A program made the translations under genes and the position numbers. From Candidatus Bathyarchaeota archaeon (lineage in GTDB: Archaea > Thermoproteota > Bathyarchaeia > Bathyarchaeales > Bathycorpusculaceae), in contig OY970280.1 in NCBI GenBank assembly GCA_963715865.1, positions 1,662,486 through 1,726,485 of the forward strand: DNA of 64,000 bases, written 5' to 3'. Position 1 is the stretch's first letter; each line of letters opens with the position of its first letter. Below, one piece after another: positions 12,550 through 55,083 of this stretch. The notes beneath the pieces are model-generated. The model ran no database searches. It saw nothing but the letters and a program-made list of their open reading frames with translations, and was not told the origin of the DNA.

Positions 12550-12658
12550 TGGTGCCGGGGGCGGGATTCGAGCCCGCGACTTCTGGGTATAAGGCGCTTG
12601 CCCCTATGACTCTCCAGATTATGAGTCTGGCGCCCTAGCCAGGCTGGGCTACCCCGGC
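12550..12658 (-). tRNA. tRNA-Met(CAT) with encoded CCA and a 31-nt intron (12581-12611) at non-canonical position 45/46
   Basis: GCCGGGG acceptor, anticodon arm CCAGA-CTCATAA-TCTGG, T-arm GCGGG-CTCGAAT-CCCGC; bulge-helix-bulge with central helix CTGG/CCAG; splicing restores variable loop AGGTC. Confidence 0.92.
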
Positions 12659-17593: not shown

Positions 17594-18951
17594 TTATGAA
17601 TTATAATTACTTATCCCTATAGTTTGGGACTTATTATCCATATTTTTGAAGCTTCCGAAGCGTTTAGGCTTCCTGTAGAAATGCATCGTAATTCCGTTGA
17701 ATGTAGCTTCATCATATTTTGTCCAGCCAGCCTTTCCTAAAGCACGAATCTCTTCAACTGTTGTTACAACGGTTTCCTCATAATCTTCCTCTTTGAACTC
17801 GATAGTATGCACATATTTCTGCGTGCTCTTCCACGACTTATGCCTCAGCAATCTTGCGATAACAACAGCATTCCCATTCGAATAGTACGCTATCATAGAG
17901 CCGCCCCAATGACGGAACGATTTAAAACTGATCTGTAGCAATGCAGGATTCTGGAATTTTGCGGCAGCCTTTACGACGAAGCGCTGCAAGGCATACATAA
18001 GCAGTCCGATAGGTCATTGGAAAAATCCGTTTGTTTTCCCTAGGCAAAGCATTCAACATGCAGGTCAAACGCATCGACAACTCGTATTTACCAGGGTAAT
18101 GGAACTTCACTGGATGATTAATACTGAACACATTATCCTTGAGGTCAATCCATTCAGCATCAAGAATCTCTGACGGATCAGCAAAAGTCTCTTTAAGGCA
18201 CAGCAGAAAAGTAGCCATACGCTTACTCGCAGCACTAATAAGCAAATCAAGGTCTTTCTCATCAGGCACAATGATAGTAGCTTCCCTCTGACGATACAGC
18301 GGACGCTGCCAAACAATCCCCTCCATCTGACAAAACGCATCATAAGCACACACCGCCAGCATTTTCATACTGTCACTCCAAGGCTCACCATTCTTCTTTT
18401 TCTGCTTAGCAATTACCATCTTCACATTTTCAGAGTCCAACAGGTCAGCGCCATCACCGACAAGATGCGTCAGAATATCAGGGTACGTTATATCTTCATC
18501 AAAACCATTACGCTCCAAGTACGCCATGAATTTTGTAATCAAGCCACGCACAGCTTCAGGTAACAGGTCCAGATGCTTCAGTTTTCTTCTTGTCTCCCGC
18601 AACAGTCTTTAATTCTGCTGCAGAGGTCAAATTTTTCGCTCCCAAAGCGCATATTTGGCGTTTAGAAGCTAAGGCACTGGACGTATTTAATGACCTTTCA
18701 GAACTTTCTTGTAACGGTGGTGACCCTTTAAGGGTCGGTCTCTCGCTAAAACGGAATCCGCAATCCCTGCAAAGCCAACGCTGAACACTAGATTTATCAC
18801 TCCTATAACGCAGGCCATCACGATAAACCTTCGTCACCTTAGGACTGCAACTGGGGCATAGGGGGCTGGCGCCATCACTAGCCAACTTGCCCAAACCAAC
18901 ACTGCCAAATACACGCTCTTGAGCAAGACCAACCATTCCCTCCCCAGCCAT
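17594..18951 (-). CDS. Tyrosine integrase with N-terminal IS1-like zinc ribbon, interrupted by two apparent +1 frameshifts (~18575 and ~17970)
   Basis: Three consecutive ORFs join as CPSC...QRWLCRDCGFRFS, core, then FKSFRHWGGS...LLRHKSWKSTQKY (H-x-x-R-like box, H, catalytic Y). Confidence 0.85.
17603..17616 (+). repeat. attL core ATAATTACTTATCC
   Basis: Identical to 57423-57436; lies inside the last codons of the integrase ORF. Confidence 0.75.
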
Positions 18952-19112: not shown

Positions 19113-19763
19113 TCAGCCAACAGTTTCACCTAACTCGCCTTTTGGACCTACAGAAGAATCCACGGTGACGGCGGCGCCTTCAGCGGCAGCTACTTCTTGA
19201 CCATCATAGGTGAAGCTGACAACTTCGAAAGTTCCAAACGAGCCCTTATGCTGAGGCCTATAATCCAGCAAACCCATCCGGACACCCGCATCTTCCAAAA
19301 TTTCTTTCAGCGTAGCCTCGATGCCTTCAGGCAGCCACTTAACATTATAGACAAGCCTAAACTTTGCACTCCATTGCAATAGTTTCGCTCTGCCTTTAAG
19401 AACCCGCTGCGACTGAATCACAACCGCCCGCTCATCAACCACGTACTGATCCGTACCCAAAGGAATCTTCTCAGGCTCCACACGCATCGTACCAGCAAGC
19501 AAACTCGAAAGCGAAACCCTATGAACCCTGTACTGCTTAGCCGTATTGATAAGCATGCTCTGCACGCATTCCTGAGGAATGTAAAGCTGGTTTTTGCCGT
19601 TGATCACTGCCATGTAAGCGCTGTTCTTTGCATCGTTCTCTGTACTATAGTTCTGCGTCTTCATTTTACTTTTACTTTTCAAACTTTCCGGATTCAACCG
19701 GTTCATTAGCAAGGGCGTTAAGCCCTTAATTTCAACATCTATTTTTTTAAAGTTTTGACTCAT
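19113..19763 (-). CDS. Virus-encoded RAMP/Cas7-like protein, candidate effector of the adjacent repeat array
   Basis: N-terminal IKGLTPLLM, YIPQECVQSML, WSAKFRL and glycine-rich C-terminal AGVRMGLLDYRPQHKGSFGTFEV, the pattern of RAMP/Cas7-group folds; no other cas genes nearby. Confidence 0.7.
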   Translation of the reverse strand: MSQNFKKIDVEIKGLTPLLMNRLNPESLKSKSKMKTQNYSTENDAKNSAYMAVINGKNQLYIPQECVQSMLINTAKQYRVHRVSLSSLLAGTMRVEPEKIPLGTDQYVVDERAVVIQSQRVLKGRAKLLQWSAKFRLVYNVKWLPEGIEATLKEILEDAGVRMGLLDYRPQHKGSFGTFEVVSFTYDGQEVAAAEGAAVTVDSSVGPKGELGETVG

Positions 19764-19768
19764 TTTTG

Positions 19769-20795
19769 TAACCTCACGTTACCATACCTGAGAGCACTGT
19801 AGCTAACGGCGCCCCGCCTTCCCTCACTAAACCAAAATAGCGGCTTACCATGCCTCACAATACATCGCATCACCAAGCCAGGCATCACTGAACTCAACCT
19901 AACTGGACACCGCAAAACATGACCTAACCGCGATGATACCAAGGAATACCACGCATTACGCGACAGGACAGTACCAAGCCAAACTTGACCCCGCCTTAAT
20001 AACGCCAAAGAACACTTCGCCTTGCTGTACCTCACCACTGCTAACCACAATGAAAGCAAAGATTGCAGCAACCGTGCCAAACCGCAACTCACAAAACCCC
20101 GCTTGACATTGCCAAACCTCAATAAAACCATGCCAAGCCTTGCATAACCGTACTTCACAGGACCAAACTTCGCCACGCCGTAGAGTGCCTCGCGACTCCA
20201 AGCCACGCAACGCCGTAATAACGCCAAACCATGCAAAACCATACCGTGCAGTACACCAACCCGCTCCACGATACCAAACAGGGCCTCTCCAAACCACGAT
20301 AACACTTTACCACACAAAACCAAGCCCCGCACCACAGATCCCCACGCAACGCAACAGGACCTCGCTAAGCCACAATAGCACCTAACCGTAGAGAACAAAG
20401 CACCACTTGACCCAACAGAACCGGACTCCACTCCGCTACACCATAATAAAAGCTTGGCTTGCCTTGCTTCACCCAACCGGACCGTTCCCTGCCATAATGA
20501 AAGCTTAGAGAAACTATCCTCGCAAAGCCGTACCTTACGATACCTAACCGGACAGGACAGAATAGTGCCATGCAATACTAAACCTCGCAACGCCTCAATA
20601 ATAGCAAACCTAGCAAACCTTACTTTACTCAACCTAGCAGTACAGGGCCTCACAAGACCTAGAAACACAAGACCAGACCTAAGAATACACTGCCGGGCAC
20701 CACTACACACCACAGGACCATACCTGACATCAATAGCGCCACACCTTACCTTAGAGGACCGGGCAACACCGCATCTTACCCCACGACACTTGACC
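19769..20795 (-). ncRNA. Array of ~178 pentamers (NGY-NN) in ~13 blocks split by GYTATT-like spacers; candidate guide-RNA array
   Basis: 5-nt periodicity seen directly (e.g. GGT-CA AGT-GT CGT-GG GGT-AA GAT-GC GGT-GT); separators GCTATTGA, GCTTTCATTAT, GTTATCGT, GTTATTAC, GTTATTAA, GCTATTTT; sits between a stop codon and the RAMP ATG. Confidence 0.8.
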
Positions 20796-21548
20796 CTAAA
20801 CATGAAAACGCAACCTCTCAAAATCCAAATGCGCCCGATTAACCAACTCTTTAATGACAGGATCATCCAGCGGAAAACGCCCCGACTCCGCCAGACTACA
20901 AAACAGCACCAAAGCGTTCTTCAGCTCCACAAGCTCACGGCCACTCAAACCAGGCTGAACCTTCCCATTCTTGGAATCCACATGAAACCGCTTGCCGCAT
21001 GGCGCCGTCAAAGTCACAATAGGCGCAGCAGACTCACGGTAAATCTCAGCAGCCGGAACATGCACAAGCGCCACGATATCTTTCACGTCAAATTTGAACT
21101 TTTTAAGCCGAGCAATGTTATCCTTAAGCTCCACGTCGCTGAAACCCTTGCCATGGCCACTATTAAGCCTCACCGCCTCAGCAAACAACTCAGCCTCACT
21201 AGAAAACGGCAACTCAGAACATTCCGCATACTCAACCTTGCGAAGCTTCCGAGAACTAAACCGATGAACACCATCAACAAGAATCTTCTGACCCTTGAAA
21301 ACGCCAACCTTCAAAGTTGGAAAAACACAACCCGCATCCAAAGCCCTGGCATAATTTTCAACAACCCTCTGATCAATCTCCTTACGCGGATAAAGACTCC
21401 AATCAAAAACCAGATCAGCAAGCTTCTCAATACGAACTGGCGCCCTATCCCAATCCTTAAACGCAAAACCAGCAGCTGGCTTAACCTCAACGCTCTTTTG
21501 CGGAGCAGGCGGCATATAAACAACTTTACCAGCAACAGGAGACTTCAA
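20796..21548 (-). CDS. ParB/Srx N-terminal-domain protein
   Basis: LYPRKEID, ILVDGVHRF, AVRLNSGHG. Confidence 0.8.
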   Translation of the reverse strand: MKSPVAGKVVYMPPAPQKSVEVKPAAGFAFKDWDRAPVRIEKLADLVFDWSLYPRKEIDQRVVENYARALDAGCVFPTLKVGVFKGQKILVDGVHRFSSRKLRKVEYAECSELPFSSEAELFAEAVRLNSGHGKGFSDVELKDNIARLKKFKFDVKDIVALVHVPAAEIYRESAAPIVTLTAPCGKRFHVDSKNGKVQPGLSGRELVELKNALVLFCSLAESGRFPLDDPVIKELVNRAHLDFERLRFHV

Positions 21549-22326: not shown

Positions 22327-22557
22327 TCATTTCTCAGGTCCCTCTATGATTTTGTCTAGTTTCTTCTGAGCGTAAGCTTCAATCCTGACAGTAACATTAT
22401 GCCCTAACGGGTACTCCTGGTACAGTGCGGAACTCTCGCTCTTAATAGACAACTTCATTTTCGGGTCACTGCATTCCAGCGTAACCTTGAACACTGGCAA
22501 TTCAGCGGCGTTCTGGCTTTTCGTATGACTGCGTACAATCATGTCATATTCAGTCAA
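22327..22557 (-). CDS. Viral hypothetical protein
   Basis: Coupled to the upstream ORF. Confidence 0.6.
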   Translation of the reverse strand: MTEYDMIVRSHTKSQNAAELPVFKVTLECSDPKMKLSIKSESSALYQEYPLGHNVTVRIEAYAQKKLDKIIEGPEK

Positions 22558-23410
22558 GCTTCTTCACCTCTGTTTTTCTCGGTTTATTTTGTAAGCGATA
22601 GAACTCTCTGATTTTTTCAAAGATTACATTACGCAACTTGGCATCGACAGCATCGCGCTCAGGCTTCCACTTGGCATCGACAGCATCGAGCTCAGCGTTC
22701 CACTTGGCATAGACAGCATCGCGCTCAGGCTTCCACTTGGCATCGACAGCATCGCGCTCAGGCTTCCACTTGGCATCGACAGCATCGCGCTCAGGCTTCC
22801 ACTTGGCATAGACAGCATCGCGCTCAGCGTTCCACTTGGCATAGACAGCATCGCGCTCAGGCTTCCACTTGGCATCGACAGCATCGAGCTCAGCGTTCCA
22901 CTTGGCATAGACAGCATCGCGCTCAGCGTTCCACTTGGCATAGACAGCATCGCGCTCAGGCTTCCACTTGGCATAGACAGCATCGAGCTCAGCGTTCCAC
23001 TTGGCATAGACAGCATCGAGCTCAGGCTTCCACTTGGCATCGACAGCATCGAGCTCAGCGTTCCACTTGGCATAGACAGCATCGAGTTCAGCGTAATATC
23101 TCAACAAAAGCTCTTTTGAAATGCCGTTAGGATCTTGATTCTTTAGCAACCGCACAGATCGACAAACACATTTCTTGTTCTCATCACTCCAAGCCTCAAT
23201 TCCATAAGCCTCAGCGAAAAACACTTGACAATCAGAGTTAAGCCAGTCCCGTGGGTCCATCGTTAAATGAAAACCCCGACTGCACATCGACAAATTGCCT
23301 TTCACAATATATTTCTTGCCAAGCTTCCAGGTCTGATGACCACCGTTGTAGCTCTGCATGTTCCGCAGGACTTTGAAAAGAATCACAGGTTTTTCTTTTT
23401 TATCAGTCAT
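22550..23410 (-). CDS. Viral protein with N-terminal C..GFH domain and ~14 x 11-aa helical repeats
   Basis: GNLSMCSRGFHL domain followed by repeats DAV(Y/D)AKW(NA/KP)E(L/R). Confidence 0.75.
   Translation of the reverse strand: MTDKKEKPVILFKVLRNMQSYNGGHQTWKLGKKYIVKGNLSMCSRGFHLTMDPRDWLNSDCQVFFAEAYGIEAWSDENKKCVCRSVRLLKNQDPNGISKELLLRYYAELDAVYAKWNAELDAVDAKWKPELDAVYAKWNAELDAVYAKWKPERDAVYAKWNAERDAVYAKWNAELDAVDAKWKPERDAVYAKWNAERDAVYAKWKPERDAVDAKWKPERDAVDAKWKPERDAVYAKWNAELDAVDAKWKPERDAVDAKLRNVIFEKIREFYRLQNKPRKTEVKKLD
22637..23093. repeat. 33-bp tandem repeat, ~14 copies, coding
   Basis: Unit cttggcat(c/a)gacagcatcg(c/a)gctcag(gc/cg)ttcca seen directly. Confidence 0.95.
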
Positions 23411-36599: not shown

Positions 36600-38814
36600 T
36601 CACCATTCAGTTCCATCGATGATAGCCCTGTATTTTTCCACGTAGTTCATAGCCATGATTCTGCGGCTGAACTTCTCAGCGTTATGCCTGCACATCTTCG
36701 CTGAAATATGCAAATGATCCACAGCGTATGCCACAGCGTCCGCCATTGCTTCAGCGTCAGCGCAAACGACTCCGCCTTCCTTAACGGTTTCAGGCATGGC
36801 ACCATCCGCCAAAACAATCGCGGGCGTGCCACATGCCATCGCTTCGATAGGCACAAGCCCGAAGGGTTCACCCATCCGTGAAGGAACAAGCACGGCTTTC
36901 GCATTCTGCATTAACTCAACTTTAGTCGCGTTGTCCGCATCAACATATATTTTAACGCGGTCACCATCACAGCGATTCTTAATCTGCTGCAAATAATTTG
37001 GGTCTTGCACAAATGAGCCGCCCACCAAATCAATCGGCAAATTAAGCTTTTCAGCTACGGCTAAAGCAACATGCGGCTGTTTAAACACGTCAAAACGCCC
37101 AACAAACAAGAGCCTATTAGATTTCTGGCTTTTAAGCGGGTATTTGTTGAGGTCCACGCCATTATATACTCGCTGTGAAACCATCCCTTGTTGCTGGTAA
37201 ACTTTTTGCATCCAGTCAGATATCGCTATGAAATTCAGATGGAACGGCGGCTTCTGCTTTAGCCACCACTCAGGATTTAATCCGCCGTGGTGAGTATGGC
37301 AAACTTTCAATTCAGGATGCTTAGCTTTAGAAAGATACTCGAAGCCAAGCCAGTTATGACCGTGAATTATGTCAAACTGCGTGAGCTGCGCCTCTATTTT
37401 GCGGTGTGCATCACGTTCAGTAGCAACCCAATCATGCTCTACTCTGTCGAATGGTGCACCGATAGAAACAATGCTGCATCCAGGAACAGCGGAACCGTCA
37501 GGCGCGAACACGGTGACTTCGTGACCCATCAACGCGAGTTCTTCAGCGAGATCATAAACGATTTGTTCTAAGCCGCCGTAGTTTTGAGGCGGTACAGTGA
37601 ATATAGGTGTACTCAGTAACCCAATTTTCAGTTTTGCATCCTTAGATTTAGCCGTGTGGACATGTATGGGTGCTTCTGTTTTGGACAGAATCAAAATGCC
37701 TGACGCTTCAGTTTTGCTTAATGTTCCTTTGGGTACAAGTTCAGCGCAGAAAAAGCTCCAGCCGTCATAACTGAGGACTTCAACTTTCGACTCGTAATCA
37801 GATGGCATTGACTTATCAAGGAGTTGCTGGAAAGATTCAGGCGTATCCCAACGCACATGGTAGAGGTGCATGCCGCCGTCGCTTACATCAAATTCCTTGC
37901 AAGTTGGATTAGATTCTTTGCCTTCTGTGACGAGGTCTTTGCCTGTGCGCTTCATGTTTTCCTCCACAGTCTCGTAAGGACGCAGCACTGCAGCCCAATC
38001 TTTCGGGTTCGGCGTAGTAATCAAAACCCGTCGTGCAACGCGCAAAGCGCCTTTTATGAGGACGTCGGGGGTTTTGGAGTGCTCAACGATTTCGCCTAAA
38101 ACGGCGGTGTCAAACTGTTTATCTCGGAAGCCGCTTTCCTCTTCAGATATGAGTTTGTGCGCGTCTAACTTGTGGAATCTTGGCAGGTCATAAACATCCA
38201 TGTCCACGCTTGTCACCTGGTCTTCAAAGCCGCTGTGCAGAAATACTTGGCCTGTGTTGCAGCCGATGTTTATGATTGATTCGCCTTTGCGGATTTGCCT
38301 GAGGATCCATACGCTTCTGTCTTCCATTCGGTTAGCGGTTAATATCATGTCGGTGCTGCATTGGGGATGGCAGCGGACAACGATGCACATGAAGCCTAAT
38401 TTTTGGAATAGTTCAGCGAGGTATTTTGGGCTGAAACCGCATTTGTGTGCGCCGCTACTGTTTTCTTGTCCGCCGAACAGCATGCAACTGGAATCTTGTG
38501 TCCATTCGCCTTTCAACGTGATTTGCCGGCACTGTTCCTGCGTGTTTGCGGTGACGATTTCGACTTTGCCGTTTAATGAGAGGATGCGGTGTAACTCAGA
38601 AATGAACTGTTCAAGATTGCGCCAGCTTATGTGCTCGATTGCGTAAGCGCTATAAACGTAGTCGTAGGCGCCTGATTCTGAAGGGCAGGGGCTTCTCAAA
38701 ATCCGCGACTAAATCAACTGTGGGTAAGGCTCGGTTATCAACGTTCAACCCGTTACCAAGAAGCTTGGAAAACCTCGGATTCTCGCCGCCGCCAAGCTCT
38801 ATATTTTTCATCAT
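36600..38814 (-). CDS. Double class I SAM methyltransferase + GT4 glycosyltransferase fusion; apparent +1 frameshift near 38680
   Basis: Upstream frame gives MKNIELGGGENP (SAM motif), then INIGCNTG, then GT4 PPQNYGGLE...EPFGLVPIEAMACGTP. Confidence 0.8.
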
Positions 38815-39710
38815 ATTACTCCTTTTTCGATGTTTAGTTGGTATTGGACTTGTTCAAGACTCATGGCATAGCTGCATGACCCGCATAGTTCAATTGTACC
38901 GCGTTTTCCCGTTCTGTGCAGCTCACGCAAACCATCCATGCTACGCCAAACCTCAAGAACACTCTGTTTATTTACGTCTCCAACGATGTTTCTGCCGTTG
39001 GGGTCATAGCAGCACGCGCAGACTTCGCCGTTCCATAAGATAACCATGCAACCGTAAATCATGCTGCAGGGAACATCAATCGGGTTATTTGCGCAGTTGC
39101 CGTTGATGTCTTTGTTCGTTGTCAAATTATGGAATGAAATCAAACTGCCGTATTGCTGCGTGAGTAGGTCGCGCTCCAAGTCAGATATGATGTTTGCGGA
39201 CGCGCCTAAACTCACGGTTACGCCAGAGCCAGACAAAGCCTCAAGTAAACCGCGGAGCCGGTGCAAATTCTCTTTAGGCAAGCCAATGAGGCGCTCGTAG
39301 GTTTCGTCGAAGTAAGCGTAGGCGCTGAAAGACAAAAGCAAGTTTTTAACTGTCTTCAATTTTGCTATGACATTTTCATCGATGCAACTGAAGTTTGTTG
39401 GCACCGCGATTTTTGTATTTGGCAACTTCTCATTAATTTTTTGGAGAATAAGGTGCCAATCTGGGTTTAGGAAGAATTCGCCGTAATGCACAGGCACAAT
39501 TTCCCTGCAAGGCTGCTTCCAACTAGAGACCTCATCAAGAATTTTATCGATTAGTTGCATGCTCATTTTGCCTTTAGGACGCGTCATAGACCTGTAACCG
39601 CAGAACACGCATCGGGCATTGCAGAAGCCGTAGGTTTCAAGATGCAAATACGGGTATTCTAAAGGTTTTAAGGTATCACGGTAATATTCGGTGTACTCTT
39701 GACAATTCAT
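38811..39710 (-). CDS. Radical SAM/SPASM-domain protein
   Basis: CNARCVFC motif; C-terminal PC...GEVCACCYD...C..C. Confidence 0.88.
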   Translation of the reverse strand: MNCQEYTEYYRDTLKPLEYPYLHLETYGFCNARCVFCGYRSMTRPKGKMSMQLIDKILDEVSSWKQPCREIVPVHYGEFFLNPDWHLILQKINEKLPNTKIAVPTNFSCIDENVIAKLKTVKNLLLSFSAYAYFDETYERLIGLPKENLHRLRGLLEALSGSGVTVSLGASANIISDLERDLLTQQYGSLISFHNLTTNKDINGNCANNPIDVPCSMIYGCMVILWNGEVCACCYDPNGRNIVGDVNKQSVLEVWRSMDGLRELHRTGKRGTIELCGSCSYAMSLEQVQYQLNIEKGVI

Positions 39711-40705
39711 TGCCAGAACACCTTGTATTTTTCGCGGATGATTGCCCACGTGTTTTTTAACGCTGTTGCCCTAGCATTCAAACCCATTTCCGCAACTTTA
39801 TCAGGATTCTTTTGGAAAAACTTGATTTTCTCCGCGATTGCATCTGGACTTCTTATCGGCACCACAAACCCATCTACGCCTTCAGTGATTAATTCGTTGG
39901 CGCCTGCGCCTTCAGTCACAATCACAGGACGCCCATAACTCATAGCTTCCAACACAGGAATTCCGAAGCCTTCCGTCACAGACGGTTGCACGTAAACGCT
40001 TATTCTTTTGTAGAATTCTGCTGTATCGGGGATTACGCCTGCGCCGCCTAAACTTTCCGTGCCAGGTCCTGCCAGCCGCGCCTGAACATCGACTTGCTTG
40101 AGCGCTTGCACGTAATAGATTTGCCCTTTGTCAGGTCCGTTTACGCCAAGGTGTCCAACCGTGAATGTTTCGGGCATAGGCGGGATTTCTTTAGGCGGGT
40201 TGCATCCATGCGGAATAACTGTGTAATCGGAGATTCCGAGTTTCTGTTTGAGGTATTCGCCGCTTACTTTGCTGTGAACTATAACGGTGTCAGCGGTTGC
40301 GACGTGGCGCATGTACAACTGAAAAAGCGTTGGGTTGTTGAGGTGCGGATAAGGAAAATTGTAGCCGAGTTTTTGGTGTTCTTCTCGGCTTAATTCAATG
40401 TTGTGGGGTGCTACGTCAGCGATGATTTGTGCGCTGTGCCGCTGCCTAATGTTTAGCGTAGTTAAGGGAAAAGGGCTGCCGTAAATTACGGCTGTTTGTG
40501 CGTCAGGGCTGAAAAGGCTCGCAAAGTAGTCGTATAGGAAAGGCGATTCAGGCTGCTCATATAGTATGGGACTACATGTTTTAGCGTCTATGATCCAGTT
40601 TAGGCATGTGGATTCTTTGAGGGCTTGTATTATGTTTTGGCAGACTACGCCGCCGCCCGTGTCATTGCGGATTAAGGTGTTAGTGACGAAGCAACTGGAT
40701 TTCAT
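39707..40705 (-). CDS. GT4 glycosyltransferase
   Basis: VYVQPSVTEGFGIPVLEAMSYGRPVI. Confidence 0.9.
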   Translation of the reverse strand: MKSSCFVTNTLIRNDTGGGVVCQNIIQALKESTCLNWIIDAKTCSPILYEQPESPFLYDYFASLFSPDAQTAVIYGSPFPLTTLNIRQRHSAQIIADVAPHNIELSREEHQKLGYNFPYPHLNNPTLFQLYMRHVATADTVIVHSKVSGEYLKQKLGISDYTVIPHGCNPPKEIPPMPETFTVGHLGVNGPDKGQIYYVQALKQVDVQARLAGPGTESLGGAGVIPDTAEFYKRISVYVQPSVTEGFGIPVLEAMSYGRPVIVTEGAGANELITEGVDGFVVPIRSPDAIAEKIKFFQKNPDKVAEMGLNARATALKNTWAIIREKYKVFWQ

Positions 40706-42170: not shown

Positions 42171-44012
42171 TTATACGCCATGAAAGTTATCTGCGCTGAA
42201 ACGAGCAGCCGCCTTTCCATAAAGCAAATTCAAATTATTACCTAGAAACACGTATTTCGCTAAGAAACTTGTTGTTGGGTCACCTGCCAGAACGTAGCCT
42301 TGACCGCTGTTAACTGCGACGCCTCCAAGGTAAACCATGTTTGACAGCGCCAAGGAAAGGTCTGCCCGTTTACACGCTACCGATGGAAACTGAGTGCCGC
42401 TTGTGCCGACTAAAATTATGTTTCCTGTTACGGAACCATAAGCCTGCGAGTAATCATTGCAAATTTGCCCTGACATAGTCGCTGTGATTTGCGTAACAAC
42501 TGCACCTGAAAGCACCGTTACTATACTTCCAGATAACACAGTTATAGCGCCACTAATCGAAACGATGTTTCCTGAAACATTAGCGACAACGTTTGCTGAT
42601 GCGATGTTAGCCATTGTGCCTGAAGCTAAACTGACAGTTTGACCTGAAATTAACACGCCGACTCCAGAGGCAACGAACAATCCTGATAAAGTTGCAGTCG
42701 GCAAAGAAATGAATTGCCCTGACAGCGTAGCGACGGGTTGTTGAACGAACGCTCCTGAAGCAACCGCCACCATTTGCCCGCTAATCAATACACCTACACC
42801 TGACCCAACAGTGACAGCTAATCCAGATGCAACCACTAGTCCAGATTGAGTAGAAACAGGCAAAGATATGCTAAGTCCAGAAGCTAAATAGGCACCTGAA
42901 GCAACCGAAACAGTTTGACCGCTAATTAAAACGCCTAAGCCTGAATTAACGGATACTGAAGCGTTAACGTATAGTCCTGACGCAACCTGAACTGTTTGCC
43001 CAGAAATTAAAACTCCAAGCCCTGAGTTTACCGAAACAGCAGCATTAACGTATAATCCAGATGCAAGATAAACGCCTGAGCCAACAGCAACTGTTTGTCC
43101 ACTGATTAACACGCCGAGTCCAGAGTTGATGGAAACTGCCGCGTTCACGTAGGACCCTGAAGCGACTGTTACAATGTTTCCACTTACATTAACAGCATTA
43201 CCAGAAATAGACGTTGAGGGCACAGTTACGTTCAAACCCGATGCAACAACCAATCCCGAAAGAGTGGCTGTTGGCACTCTTACGTTTGCGCCTGACGCAA
43301 CCTGAACTGTTTGCCCAGAAATTAAAACTCCAAGCCCTGAGTTTACCGAAACAGCAGCATTAACGTATAATCCAGATGCAAGATAAACGCCTGAGCCAAC
43401 AGCAACTGTTTGTCCACTGATTAACACGCCGAGTCCAGAGTTGATGGAAACTGCCGCGTTCACGTAGGACCCTGAAGCGACTGTTACAATGTTTCCACTT
43501 ACATTAACAGCATTACCAGAAATAGACGTTGAGGGCACAGTTACGTTCAAACCCGATGCAACAACCAATCCCGAAAGAGTGGCTGTTGGTAGACTAATAA
43601 ATTGCCCAGACTGTGTTGAAACGGGTAATGCAACGTTTAATCCTGATGCTAAGTAGCCGCCTGAAGTTAAAGTAACGTTTTGTCCACTGACTTGAACGAT
43701 GTTTCCGCTGACAGATGTTTGGACTGTTCCGCTGACTATGACGGCGCCGCTGACCTGTCCGCCTTGATTTGCTACTGTGACGATTTGACCGCTAACAGCA
43801 ACAACATTACCGCTTACTGATGTACCGACAATTTGCCCAGAGACCTGCACGATTGCACCTGAAACCGCTGGACTAACAATATTTCCCTGTCCATCCTGAA
43901 CAGCAACAACTTCAGATTGCACATTACTGGTGCCTACTGTATTCTGGATTGTGCGCATTAAGACGCCGCTTGTAGGCTGCGCACCAATTTGAATCCTAGT
44001 GTCTATGCTCAT
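42171..44012 (-). CDS. 613-aa repetitive Val/Ser/Gly-rich virion fibre/spike candidate
   Basis: Dozens of xSG(Q/N/L) turns; 105-aa internal duplication; follows the MCP. Confidence 0.6.
   Translation of the reverse strand: MSIDTRIQIGAQPTSGVLMRTIQNTVGTSNVQSEVVAVQDGQGNIVSPAVSGAIVQVSGQIVGTSVSGNVVAVSGQIVTVANQGGQVSGAVIVSGTVQTSVSGNIVQVSGQNVTLTSGGYLASGLNVALPVSTQSGQFISLPTATLSGLVVASGLNVTVPSTSISGNAVNVSGNIVTVASGSYVNAAVSINSGLGVLISGQTVAVGSGVYLASGLYVNAAVSVNSGLGVLISGQTVQVASGANVRVPTATLSGLVVASGLNVTVPSTSISGNAVNVSGNIVTVASGSYVNAAVSINSGLGVLISGQTVAVGSGVYLASGLYVNAAVSVNSGLGVLISGQTVQVASGLYVNASVSVNSGLGVLISGQTVSVASGAYLASGLSISLPVSTQSGLVVASGLAVTVGSGVGVLISGQMVAVASGAFVQQPVATLSGQFISLPTATLSGLFVASGVGVLISGQTVSLASGTMANIASANVVANVSGNIVSISGAITVLSGSIVTVLSGAVVTQITATMSGQICNDYSQAYGSVTGNIILVGTSGTQFPSVACKRADLSLALSNMVYLGGVAVNSGQGYVLAGDPTTSFLAKYVFLGNNLNLLYGKAAARFSADNFHGV
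42976..43589. repeat. Two identical 299-bp direct repeats (42976-43274 and 43291-43589), period 315 bp
   Basis: Direct comparison of both copies. Confidence 0.88.
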
Positions 44013-52822: not shown

Positions 52823-53146
52823 TTATAAAACATGTGATTTCAAACTAGCCAATTCTTGAAGAGCAGGATACCGCGGATCGTCAATTGCAAGCAAATTATC
52901 ATAACGCCGCATGAAATCACAGCCCAGACCAGAAGTAGAATAAACCGTGCGTTTGCCAACAACTTTTTTAACTAAAAAACCAGCCTCAACCAAACCACCC
53001 ATAAAGACAGAAGAAACATTAGCTTTCCGCGCAACCTCCGAAATAAGCAAATTTTTACCTCTACAACAAACCAAAACATCATAAATTATAGAAAGCCGAT
53101 TACGAGGTTTCTTCCTAGTACACCTCCTCTCATGACTCCCCATCAT
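52823..53146 (-). CDS. Archaeal winged-helix transcription regulator
   Basis: RNRLSIIYDVL...ISEVARKANV...LVEAGFL...YSTSGLG. Confidence 0.7.
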   Translation of the reverse strand: MMGSHERRCTRKKPRNRLSIIYDVLVCCRGKNLLISEVARKANVSSVFMGGLVEAGFLVKKVVGKRTVYSTSGLGCDFMRRYDNLLAIDDPRYPALQELASLKSHVL

Positions 53147-53657
53147 CCTGCACCTCCTCTTTCGATTCTTCAACCTCTGCCTCAGTGGCGCCATACGCGT
53201 CAAACGCGAACCTCGTCAAAGCCCACCGGTGCCCACGCTTCTCAAACAGCACCTTACCAGTCTCAAAATGCAAACGCTTATTCATCCGCACAATCCTACG
53301 ACTCACATCATAATATTTCAGACCGTATGCACCCAGCTTATTGACCCACTCAGCAACATCCTTCGGAAAAACACCCGCATCACCCACTTCACGCACACGC
53401 TGCAGAATCTCCCTATCAGCCTGATCCTTAACAGCAAAGCCCTCAACCGTCGGCTCATCATAATCAGCCTCACCGATTTTCTCCAGCCTATGCCGAATCC
53501 AACGAAGCTCAGTCAAAATCCGTTCATTCTGACCTTTAACCTCTTTCAGCAAAACCGTCTGATACTTAATCCTGCCAACTTTATCCTCTTGACTACGCCC
53601 TTTTTTACACGTTTGAACAACTTTTTCGCTAGACGCTTGCGCATCCTGTTCAATCAA
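53130..53657 (-). CDS. Winged-helix hypothetical protein
   Basis: DREILQRV...VFPKDVA...KRGHRWALT. Confidence 0.6.
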   Translation of the reverse strand: MIEQDAQASSEKVVQTCKKGRSQEDKVGRIKYQTVLLKEVKGQNERILTELRWIRHRLEKIGEADYDEPTVEGFAVKDQADREILQRVREVGDAGVFPKDVAEWVNKLGAYGLKYYDVSRRIVRMNKRLHFETGKVLFEKRGHRWALTRFAFDAYGATEAEVEESKEEVQDDGES

Positions 53658-54065
53658 GGTCTTTCCACTCCATCAACAACACCGAAAATATAGTGCCCCG
53701 CATCACTCTCAACCACTATCAGAAACCTCAAAGCCGAAAGCATGGAAAAAGTCCATGCAAAAACACCCCGAAAAACAGCTCCAAAAAACTTTAAGCAGCC
53801 TTTCACATCCAACAGGTTACTACGTACATCAGCTAGGGCACAGAAAACTCTGCTATGTACATCACAGGCCCTAGCATGTACGTAGTAACTCACCTAGAAA
53901 CCTCCTCTTTTTTATGAAAATGCGAGCAACTTTTATTTCTAAAAGGCTGCGGCTGCTGCGGATTACTATAATTATATTCAGTTTGAAAACCAGCTTTCCT
54001 ATTTAACCGACAAATCGCACCCTTAGCAAAACAATCTTTACCGTCGATGTCACAAACTCCAAAAA

Positions 54066-55083
54066 TCATCTAACATAATCTCCAAGTTTCTTCTGGCCCT
54101 CAGCAAGACGTTTCGGGTCTTCCACATCACCAAGCTTACCTAAAACTTCCGTAAGCTTATTCACGTTGAAAGCAATCTTCTCAACCGCAGACTCAAGATT
54201 CTCAATCTTCCTCAGAGGCGACTTACTGAGTACATTATAGATAGCTTCCTGCAACCGCTCAACCCCAAGCAACCGCGAGTTATTAAATTTCAAAGCTTCA
54301 CCAACACGCTTAACCTCCTGCTTCAACTCAAAACTCGCCTGCAACTTATCATGATCAGTGAAACCTTTCGAAATAACCTCCTCAAACTTTGTCACGGACA
54401 TCGGACGAGTAATCTTGCGCTCCTTACGCACTAAGTTCTCTTCTTTCTGGTAAACCCGCTCAACCATACCAAACAAATCAAGTTTCGTGACACATTGAAC
54501 CCCATCAATCCGCACACCATAGTAATCCTTGTTACACTCAAACGTGAGCAGTTCTAAATCATTAAGTTGCCAACCCAAATGATCCTCAACCACGTCAAAC
54601 CAACGATGCAACGCAAGTAGGCAGGCATCATGACTCATCCCGCCAACATCACAAGCAACATACCCCGAAATCTTCCGCCTCTCACTCCCAAAACAAACAT
54701 GAATCTTAACCCCCCCAACAAACTCGTCAACCTCCCAATGCTTCACATCTTGACAAACAAAACTCCGCAAAGAAATATTATGCACACAAAGAGGCACGAA
54801 CCGCATACCATAGGTGATTTTGTTACAGTAACTTCCAACATACGGCTGCAGGACAAGCCCTTTCTCAAGCAGTTTACGACAGACAACCCTCACAGTAGTA
54901 TATTGACCACGCCTAGGCTTCCTTGGAGCATGGATTATTCTGGCAATCTCTGCAGGTCTAAGCTCAACTTCTGAAGCATCGATAACGTGAAAGGCACGCG
55001 CCTCAATACCCCAGTGCCTTTCCGCTAAACTGTTTAAACTGGTGTTGCTAGGTGTCCGTTGAAGTATCAGATTTACCAGCCAA
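54066..55083 (-). CDS. Winged-helix + coiled-coil protein (replication initiator candidate); start uncertain, possible +1 frameshift near 55050
   Basis: Frame stays open upstream of the tracked GTG: LRPAEIARII...TVRVVCRKLLEKGLVLQPY wHTH. Confidence 0.55.

What the first reader, a model, noticed from the sequence alone, without database searches (positions are those of the whole stretch)
19845..20214. Further blocks decode to non-MTase defence/modification motifs (PAPS-reductase/DndC-like and GPY motif)
Block 20130-20214 gives V V F V D T T V E F P E T Y K/N F, matching the PAPS-reductase family pattern VxFxDTxxEFPETY. That family includes DndC of DNA phosphorothioation systems as well as housekeeping members. 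Block 19845-19929 gives Y H F G P Y C S D/E L, resembling the YxYGPYSxxL motif of SocA/Panacea-like antitoxin-type proteins (weaker). Sub-block 20690-20729 gives Q/H I P G V G P, a helix-hairpin-helix-like motif (weaker). The target range may therefore extend beyond methylation to other defence or competitor genes.
Basis: partly seen in the sequence, partly recalled or inferred. Interest (0 to 1): 0.82.

Follow-up and report, generated by a model that had tools for sequence, protein, structure and literature searches.

The report
VIPR guide-RNA array in archaeal provirus
The flagged blocks are guide units of a recently described virus-encoded RNA-guided DNA-binding system (VIPR); one reads out the conserved core of PAPS-reductase genes, but its best natural matches are ordinary archaeal PAPS-reductase-domain genes rather than DndC defence genes.

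Summary
Observation confirmed. Window 19764-20795, read on the minus strand, is about 200 pentamers D-G-Y-N-N in 13 blocks separated by 6-nt YATYNH delimiters. It lies directly upstream of a 216-aa RAMP-fold protein that matches the solved SUSP1 Vipr protein. This is a VIPR locus (bioRxiv 10.64898/2026.04.26.720920): the NN dinucleotides pair with target DNA and skip every third base, which is the codon wobble position.

- **PAPS block (20125-20214):** It hits only Pfam PAPS_reduct, shuffles hit nothing, and it is kept in 4 of 5 first-fetched relatives (a diverged copy in one more). Three of seven relatives add a second guide for the family's SGGKDS loop.
- **Natural matches:** in-frame matches of 72-89% NN identity (11 of 12 at or above 80%) occur in archaeal genomes and metagenomes, none in IMG/VR. 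They are CysH-like or PRK13795/PRK08557-like proteins, not DndC (17-30 bits against a cutoff of 290).
- **GPY block (19840-19929):** a real, conserved guide. The motif occurs in a domain weakly Panacea-like and found in PADLOC candidate PDC-M19A, but no natural target was found.
- **HhH reading:** unsupported.

An unreported feature is a conserved stop-free reading frame through the whole array.

The parts
19764..20795 (-). vrRNA array: about 200 D-G-Y-N-N pentamers in 13 blocks separated by 6-nt delimiters Y-A-T-Y-N-H. Each delimiter shifts the 5-nt phase by +1.
   Evidence: Arrays of the same build lie upstream of the Vipr homologue in L001-L005, L178 and L180. No Rfam family and no TRF hit cover it.
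19113..19763 (-). vipr gene: a 216-aa RAMP-fold protein, the guide-binding subunit.
   Evidence: A profile of 6 homologues hits PDB 36pp_D 'SUSP1 Vipr protein' at E=9.5e-5 over residues 6-182. The AF2 model has pLDDT 82.7. Foldseek top hits are Csm3, Cmr4 and Cas7 at E about 2e-6. The G-loop D-Y-R-P aligns with SUSP1 D177-W178-R179.
20125..20214 (-). 18-repeat guide whose NN spell VV[FL]V[DE]TTV[DE][FL]P[DE]TY[KN][FL][IM][FL]. This is the PAPS-reductase family motif (PF01507 profile positions 28-44).
   Evidence: Natural in-frame matches reach 72-89% NN identity in 12 PAPS_reduct ORFs, 11 of them at or above 80%.
20215..20220 (-). Delimiter TATTAC, 5' of the PAPS guide on the minus strand.
20119..20124 (-). 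Delimiter TATTGA, 3' of the PAPS guide on the minus strand.
19840..19929 (-). 17-18-repeat guide spelling Y[HQ][FL]GPY[CW]S[DE]L[FL][DE][DE][IM][DE][IM][NK] (the 'GPY' guide). Target family is not identified with confidence.
   Evidence: Equivalent guides are in L001, L003, L004, L005 and L180. The motif occurs in a weakly Panacea-like N-domain of DUF488/PDC-M19A proteins, but guide-to-gene match is only 55-65%.
20604..20729 (-). Run of about 23-25 repeats. The second part, LLVYL[DE]PTY, is a degenerate methyltransferase motif IV; L001 has VDFVFLDPPY at the same place.
19936..19995 (-). 12-repeat guide G[HQ][FL][FL]TPR[NK]V.., lying inside the finding's span. From my knowledge of the family this is the GxFFTPR motif of type I/IIG N6 methyltransferases; it was not tested with a tool.
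   Evidence: Decoded; the same guide is in L001 and L178. The family assignment rests on recall of the PF02384 motif.
20002..20118 (-). Two short guides inside the finding's span ([FL][NK][HQ]G[FL][DE]A[FL]T[CW].. and Y V[DE]T[NK][DE]V[FL]V) with no recognised target.
   Evidence: The antisense reading is not informative either.
19760..20866 (-). Stop-free reading frame of 368 codons spanning the entire array. It ends in an ATGA overlap with the vipr start codon.
   Evidence: 0 stops against 24 and 24 in the other two frames. The feature is conserved in 7 of 8 loci. Permutation gave 0-15 of 5000 shuffles reaching the observed value. Gene callers annotate it as a 344-347-aa protein.
20796..21548 (-). 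Conserved 250-aa gene immediately upstream of the array; a candidate accessory (vap) gene. It has a D-G-V-H-R motif reminiscent of ParB/Srx, which is unverified.
   Evidence: Syntenic in L001-L005, L052 and L178. No Pfam, NCBIfam, PADLOC or PDB match.
17594..18951 (-). Provirus integrase. It is split over three frames in the window but is an intact 451-aa gene in a 99.85%-identical public contig.

Best explanation
The flagged blocks are individual guides in a VIPR (Viral Interference Programmable Repeat) vrRNA array. The array is carried at the integrase end of a tailed provirus in an archaeal chromosome from a peat or wetland community.

**Mechanism taken from the published SUSP1 and P. fulva systems, inferred here**
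- The array is transcribed on the minus strand together with vipr.
- Vipr protomers polymerise along the RNA, one per pentamer. They bury the constant D-G-Y bases and present each NN dinucleotide.
- The NN pairs bind double-stranded DNA with one target base skipped per repeat, so the guide reads codon positions 1-2 and ignores the wobble base.
- Binding blocks transcription of the target.

**Shown here**
- The array anatomy.
- The Vipr homology and RAMP fold.
- The codon-register decoding.
- The absence of self-targets in the window.
- The nature of the natural sequences that match.

**Block by block**
- Block 20125-20214 is an 18-repeat guide to the ..VF[VI]DTT[VI]EFPETY.FI.. core of PAPS-reductase-domain (PF01507) genes. 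The variant with DTT is found in archaeal CysH-like and PRK13795/PRK08557-like genes, not in DndC.
- Block 19840-19929 is a guide to a Y.[FY]GPYS.[DE]L motif, probably of a Panacea-like winged-helix domain.
- The 'HhH' sub-block is the unexplained 5' part of a run whose 3' part is a decayed methyltransferase DPPY guide.

**Inference about purpose**
The guides encode family consensus motifs rather than one rival's sequence. I therefore infer that they give the provirus broad, synonymous-mutation-proof silencing of whole gene families (DNA methyltransferases, PAPS-reductase-domain enzymes, a GPY-domain family). These genes would be carried by incoming or co-resident elements, or by the host. Which of those is not resolved.
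For: **System identity**
- The published description of VIPR matches point by point: GGY/NN pentamer repeats, a ~20 kDa RAMP protein, the 1-nt skip aligned to wobble positions, and proviral location.
- The Vipr profile hits PDB 36pp 'SUSP1 Vipr protein' at E=9.5e-5.
- The AF2 model hits Csm3/Cmr4/Cas7 by Foldseek.
- Eight loci carry the array directly upstream of vipr on the same strand.

**Decoding**
- Blocks yield canonical motifs of C5, N4/N6 and HsdM-type methyltransferases, and of PAPS reductase.
- PF01507 is the only Pfam hit for the PAPS block, and shuffles give nothing. phrog_424 agrees.
- Relatives keep the PAPS guide with varied NN. L002, L004 and L178 add an SGGKDS guide for the same family. 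It matches SGGKDSTVL in two of the retrieved PAPS ORFs at 16/18.

**Natural matches**
- 12 of 19 gapped hits are PAPS_reduct ORFs, reaching up to 32/36 NN.
- The guide bases not used in the search match at 70% against 25% in chance hits.
- As a calibration, the first 10 repeats of the neighbouring methyltransferase motif-IV guide have 108 exact IMG/VR matches. Of these, 41 are at or above 80% over all 15 repeats, against 0 for shuffled guides.

**Context**
- No self-target was found in the window.
- The provirus context is shown by tail tube, portal, terminase and integrase genes.
Against: - No RNA data exist. No RNA run holds the locus, so transcription, strand and processing sites are inferred.
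- This clade lacks the structured 3' tail of the characterised type II vrRNAs. Some runs in relatives reach 27-61 repeats without a delimiter, so unit boundaries are uncertain.
- Position 1 of the repeat is G in only 56% of units.
- The PAPS guide has no match in IMG/VR. This weakens the 'rival virus' reading for this guide. Its matches are chromosomal-looking genes.
- The GPY guide has no natural match at or above 80% anywhere I could search.
- The 250-aa neighbour has no detectable domain, so the effector outcome (repression or cleavage) is unknown.
- The conserved stop-free frame suggests that translation of the array region also matters. The published model does not include this.
Confidence: 0.85

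Rival explanations
1. The PAPS guide is aimed specifically at DNA-modification defence genes (DndC of phosphorothioation, SspD, or BrxP of type 4 BREX) in hosts or rival elements.
For: - The motif is shared by the whole PP-loop PAPS-reductase superfamily, which includes DndC, SspD and BrxP.
- PADLOC models BrxP (78-121 bits), SspD and DndC give domain-level hits to the matched proteins.
- The rest of the array targets DNA methyltransferases, so a DNA-modification theme would be coherent.
- In L033 and L041 the matched gene lies near a ParB_N gene and an IS element.
Against: - TIGR03183 DndC scores 17-30 bits against a cutoff of 290.
- BrxP is matched over only about 210 of its 779 positions.
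- No dnd, ssp or brx neighbours are present.
- The best match, L036, is CysH-like and sits beside sulfatase-like and glycosyltransferase-like genes (by eye from the translations). L035 sits between genes that look like aromatic-amino-acid and deoxyhypusine synthesis genes, also by eye.
Confidence: 0.12
2. The region is simply a protein-coding gene. The 368-codon ORF would encode a repetitive Gly/Val/Cys/Arg-rich protein, and the motif 'decoding' would be incidental.
For: - One frame is stop-free across the array in 7 of 8 loci. Permutation gave 0-15 of 5000 shuffles reaching this.
- The ORF ends in an ATGA overlap with vipr.
- Gene callers annotate it as a protein.
Against: - The periodicity is 5 nt, not 3 nt.
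- The constant bases fall in all three codon positions, so no protein-level selection explains them.
- The encoded peptide is hypervariable between relatives that share 70-95% Vipr identity.
- The ORF has no Pfam family.
- The NN strings decode to unrelated enzymes' catalytic motifs that have natural matches.
- Translation of the array as a by-product or as a coupling device remains possible alongside the guide function.
Confidence: 0.04
3. The PAPS and GPY guides silence genes of the provirus's own host (host takeover or lysogenic conversion) rather than genes of rival elements.
For: - The matches at or above 80% are chromosomal-looking archaeal genes.
- None is in the viral collection.
- VIPR silences by binding, which a resident provirus could use on host genes.
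Against: - Only 64 kb of a 2.35-Mb contig could be inspected, and it holds no match.
- The published systems show no self-contig targeting.
- The accompanying methyltransferase guides have abundant viral matches.
Confidence: 0.2
4. The peptide-like readings are pareidolia: any A/C-rich periodic sequence can be made to yield motifs by choosing among ambiguous residues.
For: - Eight of the 16 dinucleotides are ambiguous between residues.
- The GPY and HhH readings gave no family hit.
Against: - A fixed decoding rule still gives PF01507 as the only hit, and 9 shuffles give none.
- Motif conservation across arrays holds despite NN change.
- In-frame natural matches are enriched, at 12 of 19.
- The independent guide bases match at 70% against 25%.
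Confidence: 0.02

Closest known systems
VIPR systems (Vipr + vrRNA); bioRxiv 10.64898/2026.04.26.720920 and the cryo-EM companion 10.64898/2026.04.26.720927
   Same: - Tandem pentamers with a constant GGY-type triplet and a variable NN.
- An adjacent ~20 kDa RAMP-fold protein that matches SUSP1 Vipr.
- NN strings that follow the 1-nt-skip rule in codon register.
- Proviral location.
- No self-targets.
- One conserved neighbouring gene.
   Different: - The Vipr protein is very distant from SUSP1 Vipr: E=0.022 for the single sequence and 9.5e-5 for the profile.
- Repeat position 1 is G, T or A, closer to the 'YNNNG' alternative the paper mentions.
- There is no structured 3' tail, only 6-nt YATYNH delimiters that each shift phase by +1. 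This may be the paper's 'staggered arrays', which I could not see.
- The guides encode consensus catalytic motifs of enzyme families. The paper's main text and the methods sections I read describe satellites, prophage regulators, other VIPRs and viruses as targets, and a term search of the held text gave 0 occurrences of 'methyltransferase' and 'methylase'. Its data tables were not available.
- The whole array lies in a conserved stop-free frame that overlaps the vipr start codon.
Class 1 CRISPR-Cas backbone (Cas7/Csm3/Cmr4 on crRNA)
   Same: - The RAMP fold; Foldseek gives E about 2e-6 and TM about 0.5.
- One protomer per fixed RNA step.
- Periodic interruption of the guide-target duplex.
   Different: - The step is 5 nt with only 2 paired bases, against 6 nt with 5 paired.
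- There are no repeat-spacer units, no cas1/cas2 and no other cas genes.
- The guides appear to be evolved consensus strings rather than acquired spacers.
PAPS reductase / PP-loop family (Pfam PF01507; CysH, CysD, DndC, SspD, BrxP, phage NinC)
   Same: - The guide spells the family's vvfvDTg.eFPETy.f segment.
- Relatives also spell its SGGKDS PP-loop.
- Natural matches are bona fide PF01507 proteins, at E=1e-30 to 1e-50.
   Different: - This is the target, not the thing itself.
- The DTT variant matched here belongs to archaeal CysH-like and PRK13795/PRK08557-like proteins, not to DndC, SspD or BrxP proper.
SocA/Panacea antitoxin domain (PF13274) and PADLOC candidate PDC-M19A (GPY-domain + DUF488)
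   Same: - The motif PY.[YF]GP[YF]S..[LV]Y spelled by the GPY guides of five arrays occurs in the N-terminal domain of these proteins.
- One such domain aligns end to end with PF13274.
   Different: - The PF13274 hit is below threshold and was seen for 1 of 4 proteins.
- Decoded peptides themselves hit nothing.
- Guide-to-gene NN identity is only 55-65%, so these are not the natural targets.

Membership tests
VIPR system | A Vipr protein (small RAMP-fold protein with G-loop and thumb) encoded next to the repeats. | tested here: met
   A profile of 6 homologues against PDB hits 36pp_D 'SUSP1 Vipr protein' at E=9.5e-5 over nearly full length. The AF2 model (pLDDT 82.7) hits Csm3/Cmr4/Cas7 at E about 2e-6. 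D-Y-R-P aligns with the SUSP1 G-loop D177-W178-R179.
VIPR system | vrRNA made of tandem pentamers with a conserved GGY (or related) triplet alternating with a hypervariable NN, about 9-16 per guide. | tested here: met
   Over 945 pentamers in six loci, position 2 is G 91% and position 3 is Y 96%, position 1 is G/T/A, and positions 4-5 are near-uniform. Most delimited blocks have 9-18 repeats.
VIPR system | NN strings specify targets with a 1-nt skip, and the skipped base falls on codon wobble positions. | tested here: met
   NNx reading gives in-frame catalytic motifs. Natural in-frame matches reach up to 89% for the PAPS guide. The methyltransferase motif-IV guide has 108 exact 10-repeat matches in IMG/VR. 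Other skip lengths were not compared.
VIPR system | The repeats are transcribed, processed to ~100-nt RNAs and bound by Vipr. | not testable with these tools
   No RNA run holds the locus. Only DNA metagenomes with low word share were found.
VIPR system | Conserved structured 3' tail capping each vrRNA (described for type II). | tested here: not met
   Blocks are separated by only 6 nt, Y-A-T-Y-N-H. The paper says array architectures differ between types, so this is not defining for the system as a whole.
VIPR system | An accessory vap gene with a DNA-interacting domain. | tested here: inconclusive
   A syntenic 250-aa gene lies upstream of the array in all relatives. It has no hit in Pfam, NCBIfam, PADLOC or PDB.
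PAPS reductase family as target of block 20125-20214 | The decoded string aligns to the family profile, and natural matches are family members. | tested here: met
   PF01507 at E=0.0093 and 0.054, profile positions 28-44. phrog_424 at E=0.0023. The three matched ORFs tested are PF01507 at E=3e-30 to 7e-50. tblastn best hits in cultured phages fall in PAPS reductase or NinC genes.
DndC (DNA phosphorothioation) as target | Matched genes reach the DndC equivalog score and sit in dnd clusters. | tested here: not met
   TIGR03183 scores 16.5-29.9 bits against a cutoff of 290.4. Neighbours are sulfatase-like and glycosyltransferase-like genes (read by eye), an IS transposase-like ORF (by eye), a ParB_N gene, a proteasome-like gene (both Pfam), and aromatic-amino-acid-synthesis-like genes (by eye).
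SocA/Panacea domain as target of block 19840-19929 | The decoded string or the motif-bearing proteins match PF13274 at the gathering score. | tested here: inconclusive
   Decoded peptides give no hit. Of four motif-bearing N-domains, one hits PF13274 at 17.9 bits against cutoff 25.7. Guides match those genes at only 55-65%.
Helix-hairpin-helix motif as target of sub-block 20690-20729 | The decoded string matches an HhH family profile or a natural HhH gene. | tested here: not met
   No Pfam or PHROG hit for QIPGVGPRIY.... No locus at or above 80% among 108 viral loci. The residue after GVGPxx is Y, not the usual A.
CRISPR array | Identical direct repeats of 24-40 nt separating unique spacers, with cas genes. 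| tested here: not met
   The only constant elements are the 3-nt DGY and the 6-nt delimiters. TRF finds nothing there. No cas genes other than the RAMP-like vipr were seen.

The most novel reading that the evidence does not exclude
This archaeal provirus clade uses the wobble-skipping VIPR code to write guides against protein families, not against particular rivals. Each guide would be an evolved consensus of a catalytic motif: C5, N4/N6 and HsdM methyltransferase motifs, the PAPS-reductase DT..EFPET and SGGKDS motifs, and a Panacea-like GPYS motif. One small array could then silence any incoming or resident gene of those families whatever its codon usage, amounting to a nucleic-acid 'motif detector'. 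In addition, the array would be kept translatable and coupled to vipr, so the same RNA serves as message and as guide precursor.
Probability: 0.4. Interest if true: 0.75.

Novelty: new member of a known kind. Interest (0 to 1): 0.55.

Why it matters
VIPR was described only in 2026, and its natural targets were reported as specific satellites, prophage regulators and viruses. In this locus the guides are consensus catalytic motifs of enzyme families. If that holds up, skipping the wobble base does more than defeat synonymous escape. It would let a virus recognise a whole class of genes at the DNA level, including DNA-modification enzymes, PAPS-reductase-domain enzymes and an antitoxin-like domain. 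That would be a new strategy in conflicts between mobile elements, and a natural template for designing family-wide repressors.

The PAPS guide is real, but it points to ordinary archaeal PAPS-reductase-domain genes rather than to phosphorothioation defence.

The conserved stop-free frame through the array is a testable clue to how such tail-less arrays are expressed.

Tried and rejected
1. **Exact 20-base NNx pattern of the PAPS guide in IMG/VR:** 0 hits.
2. **16-base DTTxEFPET pattern in IMG/VR:** 27 hits at about chance level. Only L023 is a real PAPS reductase, at 69% NN match.
4. **The same search with an X-padded profile:** no candidates.
5. **The same search with concatenated GPY variants:** 152 candidates, none at E<=10.
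6. **GPY sub-pattern in IMG/VR:** only terminase chance hits at 62%.
7. **tblastn of GPY variants against cultured phages:** nothing.
8. **Cross-targeting between the six related loci and self-targeting in the window:** none above shuffled level.
9. **Other guides hitting the flanks of the PAPS-reductase loci:** none.
10. **Antisense decoding of unexplained blocks:** no recognisable motifs.
11. **RNA-seq evidence:** no RNA run holds the locus.
12. **Domain assignment for the 250-aa neighbour:** no hits in any library. It shows no similarity to the ParB_N protein of L033, so 'ParB-like' is dropped to an unverified impression.
13. **First impressions, before finding the literature:** TRAP-like protein-binding RNA, G-quadruplex, pentapeptide-repeat protein and centromere iterons. 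All were rejected once the NN decoding and the Vipr match were in hand.
14. **Rfam and Tandem Repeats Finder:** neither detects the array.
Full report
**What is in the sequence.** Between a 250-aa ORF (20796-21548, minus) and a 216-aa ORF (19113-19763, minus) lies about 1 kb with strong C/A excess on the plus strand. It has the only strong 5-nt periodicity in the window. On the minus strand it resolves into pentamers D-G-Y-N-N.
- There are 13 blocks of 7-23 pentamers in the window. They are separated by 6-nt delimiters (TATTGA, TATTAC, CATTGT and similar) that each advance the 5-nt phase by one.
- Pooled over six loci (945 pentamers), position 1 is G 56 / T 29 / A 11%, position 2 is G 91%, position 3 is pyrimidine 96%, and positions 4-5 are free.
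- The 36 six-nucleotide delimiters read Y-A-T-Y-N-H, with A2 and T3 invariant. The pentamer before a delimiter always ends in a pyrimidine.

**Checking the observation.**
- Block 20214->20125 (18 units) gives V V [F/L] V [D/E] T T V [D/E] [F/L] P [D/E] T Y [K/N] [F/L] [I/M] [F/L].
- Block 19929->19845 gives Y [H/Q] [F/L] G P Y [C/W] S [D/E] L and onward.
- Positions 20729->20690 give [H/Q] [I/M] P G V G P [S/R].
- Other blocks give textbook DNA-methyltransferase motifs (assignment from my knowledge of these families): GNAVPP, GGPxCQGFS, D.I.TSPPY, LDPF.G.GTT, LDPCCGSGGFL and GQFFTPR.
- With a fixed, unselected decoding rule it still hits only PF01507 (E=0.054). Nine order-shuffled controls hit nothing.

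**What it is.** A literature search found that this architecture was described in 2026 as VIPR, Viral Interference Programmable Repeat.
- A ~20 kDa RAMP-fold protein (Vipr) polymerises on a vrRNA made of GGY/NN pentamers.
- The NN dinucleotides pair with double-stranded DNA while one target base per repeat is skipped. In natural targets the skipped base is the codon wobble position.
- Binding silences transcription.
- The cryo-EM companion paper shows one protomer per repeat. The GGY bases are flipped into protein pockets, giving a gapped R-loop of 5 RNA bases per 3 DNA bases.

The 216-aa ORF is a Vipr homologue.
- phmmer finds 'SUSP1 Vipr protein' (PDB 36pp) as its best hit (E=0.022).
- A profile of six homologues raises this to E=9.5e-5 over residues 6-182.
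- The alignment places D-Y-R-P opposite the SUSP1 G-loop D177-W178-R179, which reads the GGY bases.
- An AlphaFold model built from 40 homologues (pLDDT 82.7) hits the type III/VII CRISPR backbone subunits Csm3, Cmr4 and Cas7 (E about 2e-6, TM about 0.5).
- The family has 251 cluster representatives at E<=1e-3. All are unannotated.

In eight loci examined the array lies directly upstream of vipr on the same strand. The element around it is a tailed provirus with tail tube, portal, terminase and integrase genes. The host chromosome carries a 106-nt tRNA gene that Rfam detects but ARAGORN misses. I read this as an intron-containing, hence archaeal, tRNA. The DNA occurs in peat and wetland metagenomes.

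**The PAPS-reductase guide.** The guide recurs in the relatives with different NN but the same motif:
- L002: VfidTTidfPdif..
- L003: VfVdTTVdfPdTfk..
- L004: AVfAdTTVdfPdTVk..
- L005: VfVdTTidfPdTif..
- L180 has a diverged form. L001, the closest relative, lacks it.
- L002, L004 and L178 also carry a separate guide spelling SGGKDS(T..), the PP-loop of the same family.

Exact gapped searches gave these results:
- The 20-base core has no match in IMG/VR.
- A 16-base version gives 27 hits at about chance level, with one real PAPS reductase at 69%.
- Allowing V/I at two positions gives 7 hits in GTDB genomes and 12 in JGI metagenomes. Twelve of these 19 are in-frame PAPS-reductase ORFs with SGGKDS about 25 codons upstream.
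- The organisms named are Bathyarchaeota, a Euryarchaeota MAG and Aenigmatarchaeota.
- Whole-guide identity is 26-32 of 36 NN bases. L036 and L049 reach 89%, and 11 of the 12 are at or above the preprint's 80% criterion.
- The 16 bases not used in the search match 11.2/16 in the 12 ORFs against 4.0/16 in the seven chance hits.
- The L002 SGGKDS guide independently matches two of the ORFs at 16/18.

**What those genes are.**
- All three tested are PF01507 (E=3e-30 to 7e-50).
- L036 is a 220-aa CysH-like protein (NF002537, 151 bits against cutoff 154). It sits beside genes I read by eye as sulfatase-like and glycosyltransferase-like.
- The others are a 407-409-aa archaeal family closest to the 'hypothetical protein' models PRK13795 and PRK08557.
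- In L035 the gene sits among genes that look like aromatic-amino-acid and deoxyhypusine synthesis genes, again by eye.
- In L033 and L041 it is near an ORF I read as an IS transposase, with a ParB_N protein and a proteasome-beta-like protein nearby.
- DndC (TIGR03183) scores 17-30 bits against a cutoff of 290.
- PADLOC BrxP, SspD and DndC hits cover only the shared domain.
- The family assignment is therefore right, the DndC/defence reading is not supported, and the matches look chromosomal.
- By contrast, the first ten repeats of the adjacent methyltransferase motif-IV guide (VDLIITSPPY) have 108 exact matches in IMG/VR. Of these, 41 are at or above 80% over all 15 repeats, against none for shuffled guides.

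**The GPY guide.** Equivalent guides occur in L001, L003, L004, L005 and L180, with a shared core [P Y x] [Y/F] G P [Y/F] S x [D/E] [L/V].
- Decoded peptides hit no Pfam or PHROG family.
- Searches in cultured phages, and a word-based search of the large protein collection, found nothing.
- A degenerate motif scan of IMG/VR returned 12 hits. Five are in-frame in proteins with an N-terminal '...LQKLLFL...Y.F.PYKYGPYSF.LY...L...G.I' domain, four of them fused to DUF488.
- The DUF488-fused proteins tested are PADLOC candidate PDC-M19A (E=1e-74). The N-domain also resembles parts of PADLOC models for an HsdS fusion and for DarG.
- One of four N-domains aligns end to end with PF13274 SocA_Panacea, but below threshold (E=0.0062, 17.9 bits against 25.7).
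- The real guides match these bacterial-type genes at only 55-65% of NN. They show what kind of domain carries the motif, not the natural target.

**The 'HhH' sub-block.** It is the first 8 of about 23-25 repeats.
- In L001 the same run continues as VLVDFVFLDPPY, a methyltransferase motif IV that weakly hits the RsmD-type family (E=0.089). In the window that part has decayed to LLVYLDPTY.
- The QIPGVGP part hits nothing.
- I regard the HhH reading as unsupported.

**Mechanism, and what is shown versus inferred.**
- Shown here: the repeat anatomy, the Vipr homology and fold, the codon-register decoding, conservation across relatives, the natural matches, and the absence of matches above shuffled level in the window itself or between relatives.
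- Inferred from the published systems: transcription of the minus strand, Vipr filament assembly, gapped R-loop formation and transcriptional silencing.
- All recognisable guides are written in the sense of the target coding strand, and the antisense reading is uninformative. The RNA would therefore pair with the template DNA strand and could not pair with mRNA.
- Unresolved: where individual vrRNAs begin and end. There is no 3' tail, and relatives have undelimited runs of 27-61 repeats that concatenate several motifs.
- Also unresolved: whether the 250-aa neighbour is an effector, and whose genes are hit.

**An unreported feature.**
- The minus-strand frame that ends in an ATGA overlap with the vipr start codon is free of stops for 368 codons. 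The other two frames have 24 stops each.
- The same holds in L001-L005 and L178, with 0-1 stops against 7-24.
- Permuting pentamer order within blocks reaches this in 0-15 of 5000 trials per locus.
- L180 is covered instead by two overlapping called ORFs.
- Gene callers annotate the array as a 344-347-aa protein.
- The 5-nt rather than 3-nt periodicity and the hypervariability argue against a functional protein. Selection for ribosome transit, for example translational coupling to vipr, is my working guess.
- The preprint's held text contains no occurrence of 'open reading frame'.

**Comparison and novelty.** The locus is a member of the VIPR kind, not a new kind. It differs from the characterised type II systems in four ways:
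- the relaxed first repeat base;
- the tail-less delimiter architecture, which may be the paper's 'staggered arrays' that I could not view;
- the ORF embedding;
- the nature of the guides, above all. The preprint reports targets in satellites, prophage regulators, other VIPRs and viruses, and a term search of its held text found no occurrence of 'methyltransferase' or 'methylase'. Its data tables were not available.

Here most decodable guides are consensus catalytic motifs of enzyme families. The finding under review correctly extends that list to PAPS-reductase-domain genes and to a GPY-motif domain, but it does not establish a defence-gene target.

**Verdict.** The system is a new member of a known kind. 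Interest is moderate: the family-level guide logic and the translatable array are worth testing.

Noticed in passing
window 19760-20866 (-); also L001-L005 and L178 arrays: One reading frame through the entire vrRNA array is stop-free (0-1 stops against 7-24 in the other frames) and ends in an ATGA overlap with vipr. Permutation of pentamer order reached this in 0-15 of 5000 trials. Gene callers annotate the array as a 344-347-aa protein. A term search of the VIPR preprint's held text found no 'open reading frame'.
   Followed up: yes
window 17594-18951 (-): The provirus integrase is split over three frames in the window. A 99.85%-identical public contig (L052) has an intact 451-aa gene, and the two sequences differ by two indels. 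This is either a decaying provirus or indel errors in the assembly.
   Followed up: partly
L002 992-1036, L004 1049-1078 and L178 655-709 (positions within the 1300-1400-nt stretch analysed upstream of vipr in each locus): Relatives carry an extra guide spelling SGGKDS(T..), the PP-loop of the PAPS-reductase family. Some arrays therefore hold two guides for one target family. The window lacks this guide.
   Followed up: yes
all decodable guides in the window and in L001-L005, L178 and L180: Every guide with a recognisable motif is written in the sense of the target's coding strand. The preprint reports targets on both strands. Antisense decoding of the unexplained blocks gave nothing.
   Followed up: partly
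L002, L003 and L004 arrays (runs of 41-61 repeats): Several motif guides are concatenated in one phase with no delimiter, for example VDLVFTSPPY..ILIGGPPCQGFS..VVDFFCGTGGFL in L004. Delimiters therefore cannot be the only boundary signal between guides.
   Followed up: no
L033 3181-7219 and L041 3787-11474: A conserved archaeal module was seen: an ORF I read as an IS4/5-type transposase, a 407-409-aa PAPS-reductase-domain protein with what looks like an N-terminal Zn-ribbon, a ParB_N protein, a 198-aa protein, and a proteasome-beta-like protein. It may be a mobile island of unknown function.
   Followed up: partly
window 22550-23410 (-), repeats at 22636-23091: An ORF with a DUF7666 N-domain followed by 13.8 copies of a 33-nt repeat, giving 11-aa units of the type AELDAVYAKWN.
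   Followed up: no
window 42976-43589: A perfect 315-nt tandem duplication (1.9 copies, 100% match) lies inside the 613-aa ORF 42171-44012. It may be a recent duplication in a structural gene.
   Followed up: no
window 12553-12658 (-): Rfam finds a 106-nt tRNA gene that ARAGORN misses. I take this to be an intron-containing tRNA, which points to an archaeal host.
   Followed up: no
window 36600-40705 (-): The provirus carries a fused SAM-methyltransferase and GT4 glycosyltransferase (699 aa), a radical-SAM/SPASM protein and a second GT4. Both GT4 proteins also hit 'GT4-conflict'. This may be a surface- or DNA-modification module.
   Followed up: no
window 53001-55000: GC skew is as strong (-0.36 to -0.40) as in the vrRNA array, but there is no 5-nt periodicity. 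The cause was not examined.
   Followed up: no
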